A program made the position numbers and the translations under genes. Source: an uncultured Bacilli bacterium (lineage in GTDB: Bacteria; Bacillota_I; Bacilli_A; RF39; UBA660). From it: DNA of 64,000 nucleotides. The stretch spans positions 13,096 through 77,095 of the forward strand of contig CANQQR010000001.1 in assembly GCA_947626035.1 (NCBI GenBank). Direction: 5' to 3'. The notes beneath the pieces were generated by a model. It was not told where the DNA came from and searched no databases. It saw nothing but the letters and a program-made list of their open reading frames with translations. This document shows positions 5,186 to 28,491 of this stretch, in pieces; positions within the stretch are counted from its first letter, which is position 1, and the number at the start of each line of letters is the position of its first letter.

Positions 5186-5593
5186 ATGACATATAAGCTA
5201 GGGAAACGCACAATCAGGATTCCAGATTCAGATATTGCGCGGTCGGTGGAAAAGTTAGGCATAACCAGAGATGAAGCAATCCAGATGTGGTTAGAGGATG
5301 AGGGATACCTGGAGAATGAAGAGCAAGAAGCCTTGGAGCGGAAAGCTAAAGAAAATCGCATAACCGCAACTATTCATCAGGCAAGCGCAGTCGATGTTCA
5401 AAAGAAAACTCAAAAGGAGAGAGTGAGAAAAGAAGATCCAACAAAGGAGCTAATTATAGCAAAAACCGCGGAATTTCTTAAAGAATATGCGGAAAATGTT
5501 ACAATAATTAACGTTGGAAAGCTGATTTCATTCAAAATTGGCGATGATGATTATGAATTTAACCTAATTCGCAAGAGAAAACCTAAAAAATAG
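5186..5593 (+). CDS. Hypothetical protein, paralog of 4001-4375
   Basis: ORF with GAGGGAATTAGC RBS; paralogy by shared motifs. Confidence 0.45.
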   Translation: MTYKLGKRTIRIPDSDIARSVEKLGITRDEAIQMWLEDEGYLENEEQEALERKAKENRITATIHQASAVDVQKKTQKERVRKEDPTKELIIAKTAEFLKEYAENVTIINVGKLISFKIGDDDYEFNLIRKRKPKK

Positions 5594-5647
5594 CACGGGC
5601 GGGCGCTAAAAAGCGCCCAAAACCTCGCAAAATGGAGGAAAATAACA

Positions 5648-5872
5648 ATGTATCATGTATTTATTGATGCTGGCGGTGAAGTGTTATGTAAAACTGTGGA
5701 TGATGCTATTGACTATGTAAGAAATTGGGTTAGTGAAAGAGGAGCCTTAAATAGTCTGACTTTTGACTTCTCTAACTGGGATATGAAATATATTGTTTTT
5801 CACATAGATCATGATGGTTATTATTGGCTAGGATGTATTGAGCTTTTACCTATTTGGAATAAGGAGGAATGA
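5648..5872 (+). CDS. Hypothetical small protein
   Basis: ORF with GGAGG RBS. Confidence 0.35.
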   Translation: MYHVFIDAGGEVLCKTVDDAIDYVRNWVSERGALNSLTFDFSNWDMKYIVFHIDHDGYYWLGCIELLPIWNKEE

Positions 5873-21120: not shown

Positions 21121-21452
21121 AAATGCTTCATTGATTTTTTAAAAATTTTATGATATAATATATTTATAAGATGAAAGAGTAAATAAAAAACATTTACTCT
21201 CATAGACACCTTTACAGCAAACACATTTTCACCCCTTTCAGAAAATGATGAATAATTAAGGAGGAAGTGGGATTCCCACATCCAGCAGGCGGTAGATTGA
21301 GTTGTTGAGTCACTTTGTATCCGCTGGTTTTACTTACTTACTAACTACTCACGGGTGTCTAGTGACTCCTGACCTGGCTATGGTGTAATGGCTACGAAGA
21401 AAAGTACAATGGGAGTAAGGAGGAATATACCAGTGAATACTCCTTAAAATCT

Positions 21453-21873: not shown

Positions 21874-22251
21874 CTAAGGCCCGATGGAGTCCTCACGAGT
21901 CCATCCGCACTAAGCAAAGCGTAAAAGTGCTAGAGGATGAGAAGAAAGATTGGAGGGTTCGATTCCCCCGCTGGCAAGTCTGCTGGTCCTGGGTGTGGTA
22001 ATCTGAAGAATCTCATGAGGTTTTGGATAAAGTAAACTTGGTTGCCGCCTTGTTGAAATTGGATGACCTAATCCTCGTTAGGAGCGGCGGCAACCGCTCT
22101 TAAGAGCCACTTCGACTACGTAGGTTAAGTCGCATCTCTCAATAGGAGAGGGATGAAAGTAAGGTGCAAGTCCTTACAGTGGTATTCGTGTCTTTTTAGA
22201 CACTTTGTCATACCTCTCTTAAAAAAATAAAGGCGGTCTTATGACCGTCAC

Positions 22252-22324
22252 GGTCCCTTCTTCTAAGTGGTCAGGAAGCTAGCCCTTCACGCTAGCAATG
22301 TGGGTCCGAACCCCGCAGGGATCA
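22252..22324 (+). tRNA. tRNA-Glu-like (anticodon TTC; loop cCTTCAc with C33)
   Basis: Acceptor ggtccct/agggatc, anticodon stem ctagc/gctag, T arm gtgggTCCGAACccccg; near-paralog of 21800-21873. Confidence 0.5.
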
Positions 22325-23603
22325 TTGAGTACTTATGTACTCATGAGGTGCGCTCTTGACACCTAAAACAGAGCTGCTTTGTTGGTTTATAAGCCAAAAT
22401 CAACCTCTAGCGGGAGTTCCGTAAGGTCTTTGGTCTTGTCACCGTTTAATTCCAAGACTGCGCTACTGGGTAATGGGATCCCGAAAACCGCGGGCGCTGC
22501 TAAAAACTGCGGAGATGTAGATACCAGTGCTACATAAACTTTGCTTGATATTCAGTTCACGTATCATAACAGATACGTAGGAATATTTGTCTTTCCCTCC
22601 GCTTTGCAGTTTTGGTAGTTTCTGTTTTCAAAAACTACCTATATTTTTCTCTATTGATTTTTAATAAAAATTTTGTTATAATATATACATAAGATAAAGA
22701 AAGAAAGATTTTGGCTGTGTCGTATATAGGTTAATACGTCAGATCATCTCTGAAGACTGAGGTTCAATTCCTCACATGGCTATTTACCGGTTTCGAGCAG
22801 GGTAGCTCCCCGTCAACCGGAAACCACTTACCATTCGGGATTTACGTTAGTAAGAATGGGAGTCCAAAGTACAAGGACTAAGCAAGAAGAATTTCTTGTG
22901 ATTTTCTATTAGAACGGTTTAACCATTTGGCTATCTGGGTTCAATTCCCAGAATAGCTACTCGTGGCTCGGCTGTATCCACGTAAAACATGAGCAGTTAT
23001 TGAGATCTCGACCGCGCACTCGGGCGGTATATAAGCTGACAGGGAGTTTTGATGGGTAAGAAAAATCTCGGAAAATATTGTAAAAATCCATTCGGGATTG
23101 TTGACAGAGGTAGCGACTGTCAGTGGCGTCTCGTGATAAAAGCCACGCGTGAAACTCCTTGGGGAAGTTGCAAATTCCTCATGTAGTCCTTGCTCACAAG
23201 GCGGTTATGCAACCGACTGAATGCTTCGGGACTGGCAGACTCCATGGTATGCTCGCTTGAGAGTGTCTGCTCGCTTAGTCAGAGCGTATAGGTGACAGCC
23301 ATATTGTAAGATGGTTATTTACTTACAACGTACTAGCAGATTTTAACTTCCTGTACGTTAAGCAGGTGGAGCATCAGAAGTATGTTTATAAGACTCCGTA
23401 GATACAGACCTACGTTAAAAAGGTGTCGCGCGGAACCCGACGCAAGTTCGAAATATCGGGCGGCTGTGATGGTAGCAATAGATAGTCGCGAATATCCCAC
23501 CCTTCGTACTGTGCGCGAGGTAAAACGAATCCACAGCGTAATAGTATAAACTTCTTAATACGTTAAGTTAAGTGAAGCCAGAAGTACGTTTTCAAGGCTA
23601 TAT

Positions 23604-23962: not shown

Positions 23963-24706
23963 ATGGCTCAAAGATTAGATATATTAGATCGAAAAGAGGA
24001 CATTTTAAGATGGATTGAGGAAGGTCAACCTAAGACTTATATATGCAAGGAGTTGCAATGTAAGCAAAGTACCCTTAACAAGTATTTAGAAATTATGGGT
24101 ATTGAATATAAGGGTGTATCTGGATATAGAACTCCAGAAAGTAGAGAAAAATACAGTAACTATATTGATGCATTAACCTATATTCAAAGAGATAAAAGTG
24201 TTAAATCTAATACATTAAAGCAAAAATTATTTAGAGATGGTATAAAAGAATATAAATGTGAGTTATGTGGTTTAAATACATGGTTAGATGGGCCAATTCC
24301 TCTGGAACTTCATCATAAAGATGGAAATCACTATAATAATAATTTAGATAACTTACAAATTCTATGCCCTAACTGTCACGCATTACAACCTAATAATAGT
24401 GGCAAAGCGGTAAAGATTAAAGTTAAGGAAAAGGAAAAGAAAACAAAGCCTTGCCCTAATTGCGGAAAACCTATTGGGATAAAATCTAGGTTATGCACAG
24501 AATGTGTTCATAAAGAACAATATGTTTGCGATCATCCGTCAAGAGAAGAATTAAAGCAGATGATTAGAACTGTTCCTTTTGCCCAAATTGGTAGAAAATA
24601 TGGAGTAAGTGATAAAGCAATACCAAAATGGTGTATTAGTTATAATCTTCCAAGTAGAAAAAAAGATATAAATGGCATCTCAGACGAAGATTGGGAAAAA
24701 ATTTAA
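23963..24706 (+). CDS. HNH endonuclease with N-terminal HTH (homing-endonuclease-like, inside the tRNA array)
   Basis: ELHHKDGNHYNNNLDNLQILCPNCH HNH motif; additional CxxC pairs. Confidence 0.6.
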   Translation: MAQRLDILDRKEDILRWIEEGQPKTYICKELQCKQSTLNKYLEIMGIEYKGVSGYRTPESREKYSNYIDALTYIQRDKSVKSNTLKQKLFRDGIKEYKCELCGLNTWLDGPIPLELHHKDGNHYNNNLDNLQILCPNCHALQPNNSGKAVKIKVKEKEKKTKPCPNCGKPIGIKSRLCTECVHKEQYVCDHPSREELKQMIRTVPFAQIGRKYGVSDKAIPKWCISYNLPSRKKDINGISDEDWEKI

Positions 24707-25059: not shown

Positions 25060-25341
25060 TTTGGTGAAAAGATTTCTTGTCAGGGCCGGCTATTAAATTA
25101 GCATAACGACCCTGAGTCCTAGGGACAAGAGTTCTGACTAGCCATTTTAGGGCTGTAAGCTAACTTAGTAGAAGCGCATGCCTGAAGAGCAGGAGGACTT
25201 GGAGCGTAACCAAGATGGCCCATTAGGCGGACCCATGAACACATGAGCGTATATGTTCGCTAAGAAAGTCCTTATATCAGACAAAAGTAGAACAAAACTG
25301 ATAGGGTTTGACCTCAGAATCTACTAATGAGGTCAATATTT

Positions 25342-27857: not shown

Positions 27858-28128
27858 TTCAACCAAAGAAAAATATTTGATTTTTAAAAAATTTTATGAT
27901 ATAATATATACATAAGATAAAGAGAGAGAGTAAATGCTTTGCATTTACTCTACAACGGGAGAGATGTGCGGAGTCACGTTTCTTAGGCACGTACAGCAAA
28001 TATACTTTAAGCTTATTAAAAGTATTTTGTCGTTGGTTCGATTCCAACTTTTTCTTAATTGAAAAGTAGCTCAGATGGGAGAGCAATACTCAAAGTTTTT
28101 TGTGCCTAGTAAATATTAAAAGGAGGAA

Positions 28129-28491
28129 ATGACTATGGAGCGTTATGCAATTTTGGCTTGTGAAGCAATGTACGGTGGTTCTAATGGTATTTACACAACT
28201 AGGATCTTTGAGGGATCTAGACATGATGCAGAAGAACTTGCAACGCAGCTAAGTTTAGATGTAATGGATAGTTATTTCTTCTTCTATGATGAATTTTCTG
28301 AAGCAGCAAGAGAACAGGGATATGAAGAGAACTCAGATGAGTTTGATGACTATGTCATAAGTTGCTATGAAGAGAATATTGAGTATCGCATTGGAAAGAT
28401 TAGAAGCGATGTTACCCTAACTTCTAATGAATTAGAAGAACTACTTGAAAATGATTGGGAAGAGTTCTTTGAAAAGTATTGTATATTATAA
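28129..28491 (+). CDS. Hypothetical acidic protein
   Basis: ORF with AAAGGAGG RBS. Confidence 0.45.
   Translation: MTMERYAILACEAMYGGSNGIYTTRIFEGSRHDAEELATQLSLDVMDSYFFFYDEFSEAAREQGYEENSDEFDDYVISCYEENIEYRIGKIRSDVTLTSNELEELLENDWEEFFEKYCIL

What the first reader, a model, noticed from the sequence alone, without database searches (positions are those of the whole stretch)
27955..28110. Possible split or permuted tRNA: canonical 3' half (T-arm) lies upstream of a canonical 5' half (D-arm)
At ~28022-28055 the sequence agtat-tttgtc-gttggTTCGATTccaac forms the 3' anticodon-stem strand, variable loop and T-arm. At ~28065-28100 the sequence gtagctcagatgggagagc-a-atact forms a textbook D-arm and the 5' anticodon-stem strand. 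The two halves share complementary anticodon-stem strands (atact/agtat) but occur in the order 3'-half then 5'-half. They lie on one transcript, behind a consensus promoter and leader hairpin, and ahead of ORF 28129. This resembles circularly permuted tRNA genes, which are processed via a circular intermediate. It may instead be a degenerate rearranged tRNA.
Basis: inference. Interest (0 to 1): 0.5.

Follow-up and report, generated by a model that had tools for sequence, protein, structure and literature searches.

The report
Phage Y-RNA-like tRNA mimic
The "back-to-front tRNA" is real, but it is best read as a phage-encoded Y-RNA-like tRNA mimic from a large, apparently undescribed family that travels with a divergent Ro60-type RNA-binding protein, not as a tRNA gene awaiting rearrangement.

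Summary
At 27983-28110 (+) there is a T-arm, a D-arm downstream of it, and complementary AGUAU/AUACU strands.

This order (T-arm, closed acceptor-like hairpin, D-arm, open anticodon stem leading to a basal helix) is the solved topology of bacterial YrlA Y RNAs. YrlA is the best Rfam match (34.9 bits, below the gathering score of 69).

At least 80 related elements exist in viral contigs. A model built without the window scores it at 88.9 bits.

Bas63 gp130, reported to counter the Ppl defence system, belongs to this protein family, and Bas63 carries the RNA too.

Five more RNAs in the window share the helix+ACAGCAAA handle with other cargo.

Verdict: a new variant of a known kind (a Ro60/Y-RNA-like RNP). 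A true permuted tRNA gene is unlikely here.

The parts
27877..27905 (+). Sigma-70-type promoter TTGATT-17-TATAAT with an extended -10 TG. It probably drives the transcript that contains the element.
   Evidence: 10 of 12 matches, TG present. A consensus match only; not shown to be functional.
27927..27984 (+). Two leader hairpins (27927-27951 and 27959-27984) upstream of the element. It is unknown whether they belong to the mature RNA.
   Evidence: MFE fold. They are not part of the conserved family model.
27983..27990 (+). Outer (basal) helix, 5' strand, UUAGGCAC.
   Evidence: Pairs with 28102-28109. In the family, 7 of 7 pairs show compensatory changes and 93.5% of cells pair.
27993..28000 (+). 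Conserved single-stranded motif ACAGCAAA, the candidate protein-binding site.
   Evidence: CAGC is invariant and the following AA is at least 90% conserved in 41 elements. The motif occupies the position of YrlA's GNCGAAN0-1G motif (PMC4201824). Its role is inferred.
28006..28020 (+). V hairpin UUUAA-GCUUA-UUAAA. In most relatives this is an anticodon-arm-like hairpin with a 7-nt loop; in the window it is degenerate.
   Evidence: Alternative pairing: AUACUUU (28002-08) with AAAGUAU (28019-25) in the MFE fold.
28021..28025 (+). 3' strand of the anticodon-stem-like helix (AGUAU). It pairs with 28086-28090.
   Evidence: Family helix: 74.8% of cells pair versus 39.6% in shuffles (0 of 500 reach it); covariation score 0.75 versus 0.20.
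28026..28031 (+). Variable-loop equivalent UUUGUC. The final C is the C48 partner of G15.
   Evidence: Read from the sequence. GUC is conserved before the T-stem in the family.
28032..28048 (+). T-arm GUUGG-UUCGAUU-CCAAC.
   Evidence: 100% of cells pair in the family, and 4 of the 5 pairs covary.
28049..28066 (+). Closed acceptor-stem-like hairpin UUUUUC-UUAAUU-GAAAAG (6 bp).
   Evidence: In the family, 6 of 6 pairs are compensatory and 99.2% of cells pair. The stem is usually 7-8 bp in relatives.
28067..28085 (+). U8-A9 linker, D-arm GCUC-AGAUGGGA-GAGC and A26.
   Evidence: U8, A14, G18 and A21 are invariant and G19 is at least 90% conserved.
28086..28090 (+). 5' strand of the anticodon-stem-like helix (AUACU).
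28102..28109 (+). Outer helix, 3' strand, GUGCCUAG.
30770..32266 (+). Gene for a 498-aa Ro60 structural homologue (Pfam DUF2828 + DUF7788/vWA, phrog_850), the proposed protein partner.
30597..30717 (+). Sister RNA. The same helix (AAAGCUC/GAGCUUU) plus UCAGCAAAC handle encloses a normal-order tRNA-like cargo (ARAGORN 'tRNA-???', 6-nt anticodon loop). It ends 53 nt upstream of the Ro60-homologue gene.
29614..29706 (+). Sister RNA. The handle (AGAUGCAG/CUGCAUCU plus UACAGCAAU) encloses a cargo that has only a T-arm.
29467..29538 (+). Short sister RNA. The handle (AAGACUCAU/AUGAGUCUU plus ACAGCAAAU) has no tRNA-like cargo. It abuts tRNA-Gln.
28501..28575 (+). Short sister RNA. The handle (AAGGCGGU/ACCGCCUU plus CACAGCAAAA) has no tRNA-like cargo. 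It abuts tRNA-Pro.
21203..21361 (+). Probable sister RNA. The handle (UAGACACCU/GGGUGUCUA plus UUACAGCAAAC) encloses a ~120-nt cargo of unknown shape.
   Evidence: Not examined further.

Best explanation
The element at 27983-28110 (+) is a phage-encoded non-coding RNA of the Y-RNA kind, with the YrlA-type architecture.

A basal helix plus a conserved single-stranded ACAGCAAA forms a protein-binding handle. The rest folds into an L-shaped tRNA mimic whose acceptor stem is closed by a loop and whose anticodon stem is open towards the handle. That arrangement is why the 3' half of the cloverleaf lies before the 5' half.

The most likely partner is the Ro60 structural homologue encoded 2.66 kb downstream on the same strand (30770-32266).

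Proposed mechanism (inferred):
1. The ring-shaped protein binds the handle.
2. The tRNA-shaped module recruits or decoys a tRNA-recognising factor, such as a processing, modification or repair enzyme, an exoribonuclease, or a host tRNA-targeting defence nuclease.
3. The resulting RNP acts in RNA quality control, RNA repair or counter-defence during infection.

The phage makes a set of such RNAs (at least five more in this window) that share the handle but present different cargo, in the way Salmonella has YrlA and YrlB.

Shown here: the structure, its conservation and covariation, the genomic linkage to the protein, and the Ro60 fold of the protein.

Inferred: physical binding, the role of ACAGCAAA, the identity of the effector, and the biological role.
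For: RNA identity
- The best Rfam match is YrlA, over the full model length (34.9 bits, E = 3e-6).
- The topology equals that of the solved YrlA structure: T stem-loop, closed acceptor stem (6 bp in Salmonella as well), D stem-loop, and an open anticodon stem leading to the Ro60 module (10.1101/312249; PMC4201824).
- The tRNA tertiary-core nucleotides are present in the window (U8, A14, G15/C48, G18, G19, A21, U54-U55-C56, A58). Most of them are invariant or at least 90% conserved across the family.

Family
- 41-sequence alignment: 22 of 23 RNAalifold pairs are compensatory.
- 93.2% of cells pair, versus 63.9% in shuffles and 33-44% when slid.
- 86 matches at E < 1e-6 in 56 viral loci.
- A leave-one-out model scores the window at 88.9 bits.

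Linkage to the protein
- Among loci fetched by an RNA pattern alone, 23 of 56 with a true element carry the DUF2828 protein within about 8 kb, against 6 of 44 without one (Fisher p = 0.0036).
- In 31 loci holding both, the two are on the same strand in 31 of 31; the median gap is 623 nt and 14 lie within 500 nt.
- The window meets Chen et al.'s criterion (within 4 kb, same strand).

Protein
- AF2 model: pLDDT 91.3, pTM 0.91.
- The DxSxS MIDAS motif is invariant.
- Mycobacteriophage annotators call homologues 'Ro-like RNA binding protein'.

Transfer to studied phages
- Faith1 has the element 101 nt after its Ro-like gene.
- Bas63 has an unannotated element at 63.3 bits in its tRNA array.

Context
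- An OB-fold domain that I recall as typical of phage RNA-ligase-like proteins (PHA02142; own knowledge), a phosphoesterase, a nucleotidyltransferase and a PIN-PhoH protein lie downstream.
Against: - No binding, expression or RNA-end data exist for this phage.
- The element is below Rfam's YrlA gathering score (34.9 versus 69; Faith1 scores only 21.7).
- It lacks YrlA's GNCGAAN0-1G motif.
- The protein gives no Pfam TROVE hit and only a marginal profile hit to Ro60 sequence (E = 0.78), so homology rests on a predicted fold.
- The window's element is 2.66 kb from the gene, with tRNAs and an ORF between. Both lie in the tRNA region, so part of the linkage could reflect shared residence in tRNA arrays.
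- The thermodynamic MFE of the window copy prefers another pairing of AGUAU, with the upstream AUACU (-31.6 versus -25.0 kcal/mol for the family fold).
- The co-occurrence test is modest in size, and the loci are short.
Confidence: 0.75

Rival explanations
1. It is a true circularly permuted (or split) tRNA gene. The leader and trailer pair, the ends are cut and ligated or held together, the acceptor loop is opened by RNase P and a 3' processing enzyme, CCA is added, and a functional or chargeable tRNA results.
For: - The family is a near-perfect permuted cloverleaf. In 36 of 55 resolvable members the few nucleotides after the D-arm plus the 5' strand of the upstream hairpin complete exactly a 5-bp anticodon stem with a 7-nt loop. 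Permuted controls give 10.8 +/- 2.4, maximum 18.
- The loops show U33 in 32 of 36, R37 in 35 of 36 and A38 in 32 of 36, with varied anticodons.
- Acceptor-like stems are mostly 7-8 bp, and N-CCA follows the 3' strand in 3 of 49 (0.77 expected, p = 0.04).
- M. smegmatis YrlA, with a 7-bp stem, is cut by RNase P and receives CCA in vivo (PMC4201824).
- These phages encode RNA-repair-type enzymes (PMC13148394).
Against: - The window copy fails the test. It has no 7-nt U33 loop, a 6-nt variable loop, and a 6-bp acceptor-like stem with a G-U pair and a UUAAUU loop without CCA.
- Chen et al. detected no RNase P cleavage of Salmonella YrlA or D. radiodurans Yrn1 and attributed this to their lacking a 7-bp acceptor stem (PMC4201824).
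- The junction is an 8-bp helix with 15- and 11-nt unpaired strands, not a bulge-helix-bulge.
- The same handle encloses cargo with no tRNA shape (28501-28575, 29467-29538) and a normal-order tRNA-like with a 6-nt anticodon loop.
- The element is tightly linked to a Ro60 homologue.
- No paper held in the searched library reports a permuted tRNA gene in a bacteriophage.
Confidence: 0.06
2. It is a degenerate remnant of two adjacent tRNA genes (the T-arm of one and the D-arm of the next), with no function of its own.
For: - The element lies in a tRNA array with 17 tRNA hits in the window.
- Tandem tRNAs do mimic the T-arm-then-D-arm order: most hits of the first pattern scan were such pairs.
- An origin of YrlA from dimeric tRNAs has been proposed (10.1101/312249).
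Against: - The spacer is a closed 6-bp hairpin, not two acceptor strands plus a gap.
- No flanking tRNA halves are detectable.
- At least 80 homologues in unrelated phages keep every helix through compensatory changes.
- An invariant non-tRNA motif (ACAGCAAA) and a covarying outer helix are present.
- The leave-one-out score is 88.9 bits.
Confidence: 0.03
3. The helix+ACAGCAAA handle is a processing or stability signal of phage tRNA-array transcripts (a site for a nuclease or a chaperone of precursors). The tRNA-like element is simply one cargo. The Ro-like protein is linked only because both sit in the tRNA region.
For: - The handles sit directly against tRNA genes (28575 then tRNA-Pro at 28579; 29538 then tRNA-Gln at 29542), and one wraps a tRNA-like in normal order.
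- No terminator follows the element, so it must be cut out of a longer transcript.
- Handles are frequent in the tRNA regions of many phages.
Against: - Faith1 has no tRNA genes near gp55 in the stretch examined, yet three handles follow the Ro-like gene directly.
- The strand and distance linkage to the protein (31 of 31 on the same strand, 14 of 31 within 500 nt) is tighter than shared neighbourhood would predict.
- Ro60 proteins are known to bind exactly such helix-plus-conserved-strand handles (PMC4201824, PMC12135203).
- This rival overlaps with the main explanation if the Ro-like protein is the factor that reads the signal.
Confidence: 0.12

Closest known systems
YrlA (Y RNA-like A; Rfam RF02553), the tRNA-mimicking Y RNA of Salmonella, Mycobacterium and other bacteria and of some phages, bound by Rsr/Ro60
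   Same: - The order of modules is the same: basal helix with a conserved 5'-strand motif, an optional V hairpin, the T-arm, a closed acceptor-like hairpin, UA, the D-arm, and an open anticodon stem.
- The tRNA tertiary-core nucleotides are conserved.
- It is encoded within 4 kb and on the same strand as a Ro60-type gene.
- It is accompanied by sister RNAs that lack the tRNA module, like YrlB.
   Different: - It scores 34.9 bits against a gathering score of 69.
- The conserved handle motif is ACAGCAAA, not GNCGAAN0-1G.
- The partner is a DUF2828+vWA protein that Pfam TROVE does not recognise.
- Most family members, though not the window copy, also keep an anticodon-arm-like hairpin with a U33/R37 loop, whereas solved YrlA 'lacks the anticodon loop'.
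Phage Ro60 with Y-like RNAs: Thermus phage phiLo phiRo60 with Yrl1/Yrl2 (PMC12135203), and the mycobacteriophages, CcrColossus and Bacillus phage G that paper cites from Chen et al. 2014
   Same: The phage encodes a Ro60-fold protein plus several nearby small RNAs, each with a terminal stem and a conserved motif in an internal bulge. A role in hijacking host RNA enzymes or escaping defence has been proposed.
   Different: Those proteins are canonical TROVE proteins, and their RNAs carry the CGAA motif. The phiLo Yrls are not described as tRNA-shaped.
Bas63 (Felixounavirus) gp130, a Ro60-like counter to the Ppl defence system (PhageMaP preprint 10.1101/2024.10.10.617714)
   Same: It is the same protein family (30% identity, E = 2e-55, full length) with the same position next to the tRNA array. 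The authors guessed that Y RNAs might hide among the tRNAs.
   Different: They proposed that some annotated tRNAs are the Y RNAs. Here the candidates are unannotated elements between the tRNAs (L151:22781-22909 and three short handles). No RNA was identified in that work.
Circularly permuted tRNA genes of Cyanidioschyzon merolae and other algae
   Same: The 3' half lies upstream of the 5' half on one transcript, the acceptor ends are joined by a short intervening sequence, and the leader and trailer pair.
   Different: Those are processed at a bulge-helix-bulge motif by the splicing endonuclease and a ligase through a circular intermediate into decoding tRNAs (own knowledge). Here there is no BHB, the window copy has no anticodon loop, the host is bacterial, and the gene is linked to Ro60.
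D. radiodurans Yrn1
   Same: It is a Ro60-bound Y RNA with a tRNA-like effector domain. [quoted passage not shown] That resembles the window's sister RNA at 30597-30717.
   Different: It has a different handle sequence, and no dihydrouridine was detected in its 'D loop' (PMC4201824). It is bacterial, not phage-encoded.

Membership tests
YrlA / bacterial Y RNA (Rfam RF02553) | Reaches the Rfam gathering score (69 bits). | tested here: not met
   34.9 bits, E = 3.1e-6, model positions 1-114. Relatives score 35.1 (L003) and 21.7 (Faith1).
YrlA / bacterial Y RNA (Rfam RF02553) | Module order: T stem-loop, closed acceptor-like stem-loop, UA, D stem-loop, with the anticodon-type stem open towards a basal helix. 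| tested here: met
   for the window. Covariation of all five helices in 41 relatives. Compared with 10.1101/312249 and PMC4201824.
YrlA / bacterial Y RNA (Rfam RF02553) | Conserved tRNA tertiary-core nucleotides (U8, A14, R15:Y48, G18, G19, T-loop). | tested here: met
   Window: UA, AGAUGGGA...GUC, UUCGAUU. Invariant or near-invariant columns in A2.
YrlA / bacterial Y RNA (Rfam RF02553) | GNCGAAN0-1G motif near the 5' end (the proposed Rsr contact). | tested here: not met
   The position is occupied by ACAGCAAA (27993-28000). CAGC is invariant across the family.
YrlA / bacterial Y RNA (Rfam RF02553) | Encoded within 4 kb of, and on the same strand as, a Ro60 orthologue. | tested here: met
   2,660 nt upstream of 30770-32266, same strand. 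Family: 31 of 31 on the same strand, median gap 623 nt. The protein is a Ro60 homologue by fold only.
YrlA / bacterial Y RNA (Rfam RF02553) | Bound by Ro60/Rsr in vivo, and modified by TruB and DusA. | not testable with these tools
   Needs RIP/CLIP and modification mapping.
Ro60 / TROVE proteins (for the ORF at 30770-32266) | Pfam TROVE (PF05731) match. | tested here: not met
   Only DUF2828, DUF7788 and weak VWA hits, even at E <= 10 and for four distant homologues.
Ro60 / TROVE proteins (for the ORF at 30770-32266) | Helical-repeat ring followed by a vWA domain with a MIDAS motif; overall fold like Ro60. | tested here: met
Circularly permuted tRNA genes | The 3' half (T-arm) lies upstream of the 5' half (D-arm) on one strand, with complementary anticodon-stem strands. 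| tested here: met
Circularly permuted tRNA genes | Joining the ends gives a complete cloverleaf with a 5-bp anticodon stem and a 7-nt loop (U33, R37). | tested here: not met
   The window copy fails ('window row: '). 36 of 55 relatives pass, against 10.8 in controls.
Circularly permuted tRNA genes | Bulge-helix-bulge motif at the leader/trailer junction. | tested here: not met
   The junction is an 8-bp helix with unpaired strands of 15 nt (27991-28005) and 11 nt (28091-28101), by inspection of the fold.
Circularly permuted tRNA genes | A circular intermediate and a mature joined tRNA exist. | not testable with these tools
   Needs RT-PCR across the junction and tRNA-seq.
Tandem (dimeric) tRNA genes | Two complete tRNAs flank the T-arm/D-arm pair. 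| tested here: not met
   No tRNA is called at 27955-28110 by ARAGORN or by Rfam at gathering. Only a 21-bit partial tRNA match.

The most novel reading that the evidence does not exclude
Members of this phage RNA family are true circularly permuted or two-piece tRNAs.

After RNase P opens the acceptor loop and CCA is added, as happens to M. smegmatis YrlA, the halves would be held together by the handle and perhaps the Ro60-like ring. They would then form a chargeable or decoding tRNA, or a precise anticodon-loop decoy for tRNA-targeting defence nucleases.

This would be the first permuted tRNA system in bacteria or their viruses. The window copy would be a degenerate member.
Probability: 0.07. 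Interest if true: 0.9.

Novelty: new variant of a known kind. Interest (0 to 1): 0.6.

Why it matters
- **It explains a puzzling sequence.** An apparently scrambled tRNA turns out to be an ordered, conserved RNA.
- **It points to an unrecognised branch of the Ro60/Y-RNA system.** The protein family is filed as DUF2828, 'vWFA protein' or 'RNA-binding protein'. It is present in 705 of about 50,700 phage records, including the Felixounavirus, Listeria, Staphylococcus, Campylobacter and cluster L mycobacteriophage groups. It appears to be a Ro60 homologue, and its candidate RNA partners have now been identified.
- **The RNAs are absent from Rfam at curated thresholds.** They are unannotated in reference phages, and in Bas63 they are overlaid by probably spurious ORFs.
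- **It makes an open question testable.** One member of the protein family (Bas63 gp130) is reported to counter the Ppl defence system. The RNAs are concrete objects for asking how a phage Ro60-type RNP defeats host immunity.
- **The near-complete permuted cloverleaves bear on origins.** With anticodon-type loops in many members, they also inform how Y RNAs may have arisen from tRNAs.

Tried and rejected
- **DNA similarity search of the region against annotated phages.** Only about 50-nt promoter-like matches were found. The phage has no close relative in that collection; the best protein identity is about 39%.
- **Sequence searches of the protein against PDB.** Nothing was found for the single sequence or the shallow profile. 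The diverse profile gave only a marginal Ro60 hit (E = 0.78).
- **First pattern scan, T-arm...D-arm.** It mostly recovered tandem tRNA genes, the false positive Chen et al. warned about. This was solved by adding the CAGCAAA anchor and a closed-hairpin filter.
- **N-CCA after the acceptor-like 3' strand.** Enrichment is weak (3 of 49, p = 0.04), so I do not rely on it.
- **The MFE alternative, in which AGUAU pairs with the upstream AUACU.** It is thermodynamically favoured in the window. I did not adopt it as the native fold, because the downstream pairing is the one that covaries in the family.
- **Literature.** No paper links DUF2828 to Ro60. No paper in the searched library reports a bacteriophage permuted tRNA gene. 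The supplementary phage table of Chen et al. 2014 is not held, so I could not check whether any of their 22 phages carry this subfamily.
- **Rfam scan of the G+C-rich non-coding stretches nearby.** There were no hits.

Full report
**1. The observation**

The window is an AT-rich phage sequence. It has 17 tRNA hits on the + strand between 20.3 and 30.7 kb. Its best matches among annotated phages are only about 39% identical at the protein level.

At the reported place the sequence reads as follows:
- AGTAT: 28021-25
- TTTGTC: 28026-31
- GTTGG-TTCGATT-CCAAC: 28032-48
- TTTTTC-TTAATT-GAAAAG: 28049-66
- TA: 28067-68
- GCTC-AGATGGGA-GAGC: 28069-84
- A: 28085
- ATACT: 28086-90

So are the promoter at 27877-27905 (TTGATT-17-TATAAT with a TG), the leader hairpin and the ORF at 28129.

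First, the stretch between the arms is itself a closed 6-bp hairpin. Second, an 8-bp helix (27983-90 with 28102-09) encloses the whole element and is followed on the 5' side by ACAGCAAA.

**2. What it resembles**

A permissive Rfam scan of the region gives YrlA, the tRNA-like bacterial Y RNA, as the best family. The match covers the model end to end at 34.9 bits and E = 3e-6, but it is below the gathering score of 69.

Chen et al. (PMC4201824) and the YrlA crystal-structure preprint (10.1101/312249) describe exactly this order: T stem-loop, an acceptor stem closed by a loop (6 bp in Salmonella), UA, D stem-loop, and an anticodon stem that opens into the Ro60-binding module. The "3' half before 5' half" order is thus the normal design of a known RNA class.

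The window copy also keeps the nucleotides of the tRNA tertiary core.

**3. A large family**

Pattern scans of viral contigs were combined with a topology filter requiring a T-arm, then a closed hairpin, then a D-arm. This gave 44 distinct relatives. Most raw hits of the simplest pattern were tandem tRNAs and were discarded.

A 41-sequence alignment shows invariant CAGC in the ACAGCAAA motif, an invariant T-loop, and invariant U8, A14, G18 and A21.

RNAalifold recovers the outer helix, the T-arm, the acceptor-like hairpin and the D-arm. Compensatory changes occur in 22 of 23 pairs.

Counting pairs for five helices gives 93.2% of cells paired, against 63.9% in shuffles and 33-44% with slid partners.

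It is 74.8% paired, against 39.6% in shuffles (0 of 500 reach it) and 32-41% when slid. It is therefore a real, short (2-5 bp) family helix.

A covariance model finds 86 matches at E < 1e-6 in 56 of 100 loci. A model built without the window sequence scores the window at 88.9 bits, E = 7e-17.

**4. Linkage to a protein**

The ORF at 30770-32266 (498 aa) matches Pfam DUF2828 and DUF7788/vWA, and phrog_850 "RNA-binding protein".

Among 100 loci fetched by the RNA pattern alone, the protein is present in 23 of 56 with a true element and in 6 of 44 without one. The mean locus length is the same, and Fisher p = 0.0036.

In 31 loci holding both, the nearest element is always on the protein's strand. 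The median gap is 623 nt, and 14 lie within 500 nt.

In Faith1 the element begins 101 nt after the gene annotated "Ro-like RNA binding protein".

**5. The protein is a Ro60 homologue by fold**

Sequence methods do not show the relationship. There is no TROVE hit and only a marginal profile hit to 1yvp.

A first, shallow-alignment model was poor. With 88 diverse sequences the AlphaFold model reaches pLDDT 91.3 and pTM 0.91.

The DxSxS MIDAS motif is invariant.

The family occurs in 705 phage records. Bas63 gp130, reported to resemble Ro60 and to counter the Ppl defence system (10.1101/2024.10.10.617714), is a full-length homologue (E = 2e-55). Bas63 carries an unannotated element (63.3 bits) and short handles in its tRNA array.

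**6. More RNAs with the same handle**

The model and a direct scan show five further RNAs on the + strand of the window that have a helix plus [N]ACAGCAA handle:
- 21203-21361: unknown cargo
- 28501-28575 and 29467-29538: no tRNA-like cargo
- 29614-29706: T-arm only
- 30597-30717: a normal-order tRNA-like with a 6-nt anticodon loop, just upstream of the Ro60-homologue gene

Loci fetched by the protein alone hold 42 such handles on the protein's strand and 16 on the other. This mirrors YrlA and YrlB: one handle, several cargoes.

**7. The permuted-tRNA rival**

In the family, the hairpin upstream of the variable loop usually has a 7-nt loop [C/A]U-NNN-AA.

In 36 of 55 members its 5' strand plus the nucleotides after the D-arm complete exactly a 5-bp anticodon stem. 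Permuted controls give 10.8 +/- 2.4. U33 is present in 32 of 36 and R37 in 35 of 36.

Many members are therefore almost perfect permuted cloverleaves, and this keeps a processing-to-tRNA reading alive at low probability. M. smegmatis YrlA is cut by RNase P and receives CCA (PMC4201824).

Several points count against that reading for the window copy. It lacks the anticodon-type loop, it has a 6-bp acceptor-like stem without CCA, and it has no bulge-helix-bulge. The handle also wraps non-tRNA cargo.

**8. Mechanism**

Shown here:
- a conserved, covarying, tRNA-shaped RNA with a conserved handle
- several sister RNAs
- tight same-strand linkage to a Ro60-fold protein

Inferred: the protein binds the helix/ACAGCAAA handle. 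The tRNA-shaped module engages a tRNA-recognising factor. The RNP serves RNA surveillance, RNA repair or counter-defence.

The inference rests on three things: known Ro60/Y-RNA biology; the genes nearby (a PHA02142 OB-fold protein that I recall as RNA-ligase-like, a phosphoesterase, a nucleotidyltransferase and a PIN-PhoH protein); and the Ppl phenotype of Bas63 gp130.

**9. Novelty**

Y RNAs that mimic tRNA, and phage Ro60 with Y-like RNAs, are known (PMC4201824, PMC12135203). New here:
- a subfamily with a different handle motif
- a partner protein not recognised as TROVE
- frequent retention of an anticodon-type arm
- wide distribution in well-studied phage groups where these RNAs are unannotated

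I found no paper describing them. I could not inspect the phage supplement of Chen et al..

I rate the finding a new variant of a known kind, with interest 0.6.

Noticed in passing
window 28736-29008, 29082-29260, 29782-30445: G+C-rich, ORF-poor stretches lie between tRNA genes in an otherwise AT-rich phage. They have no Rfam match even at E <= 1. They could be unknown structured RNAs.
   Followed up: partly
window 28661-28735: A tRNA-shaped sequence directly after tRNA-Pro. It scores only 20 bits (against the tRNA-Sec model) and ARAGORN does not call it.
   Followed up: no
window 22713-22782 and 25150-25222: Rfam calls these tRNAs (47.5 and 31.7 bits) but ARAGORN does not. They may be unusual tRNAs or further mimics.
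   Followed up: no
window 27885-27905 and about 29275-29297: Nearly the same promoter-like sequence (aaaattttatgatataat) occurs twice, once upstream of the element and once upstream of the 29467-29538 handle.
   Followed up: no
window 30630-30701: ARAGORN's 'tRNA-???' has a 6-nt anticodon loop. It is enclosed by a helix+UCAGCAAAC handle (30597-30717) just upstream of the Ro60-homologue gene. It is probably a mimic, not a decoding tRNA.
   Followed up: partly
L151 (Bas63, MZ501086) 22749-23023; element at 22781-22909: Two small reverse-strand 'hypothetical protein' CDSs (bas63_0137 and bas63_0138) lie over or next to the Y-like RNA and are probably mis-annotations. Three short handles sharing the AGACC../..GGTCT helix lie at 22073-22139, 22240-22297 and 22695-22762.
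   Followed up: partly
L148 (Faith1, JF744988) 5472-5728: Three handle RNAs lie in tandem in the unannotated 368-nt gap right after the 'Ro-like RNA binding protein' gene. The middle one is the tRNA-like type.
   Followed up: partly
L002 6406-6751: A viral contig related to this phage carries a tmRNA gene (Rfam 57.2 bits) inside its tRNA array.
   Followed up: no
window 23963-24706 and 32311-33645 (-): An ORF with weak HNH and zinc-ribbon matches sits inside the tRNA array, and a radical SAM enzyme gene lies next to the Ro60-homologue gene.
   Followed up: no
family alignment A2/A5 (e.g. L054:1287-1405, L067:12624-12737, L090:10449-10572): A subset of elements has a different D-arm (TCGTCTAG..GGTTAGGAC) and AAC instead of GTC before the T-arm. 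This suggests that several tRNA-type lineages exist within the family.
   Followed up: no
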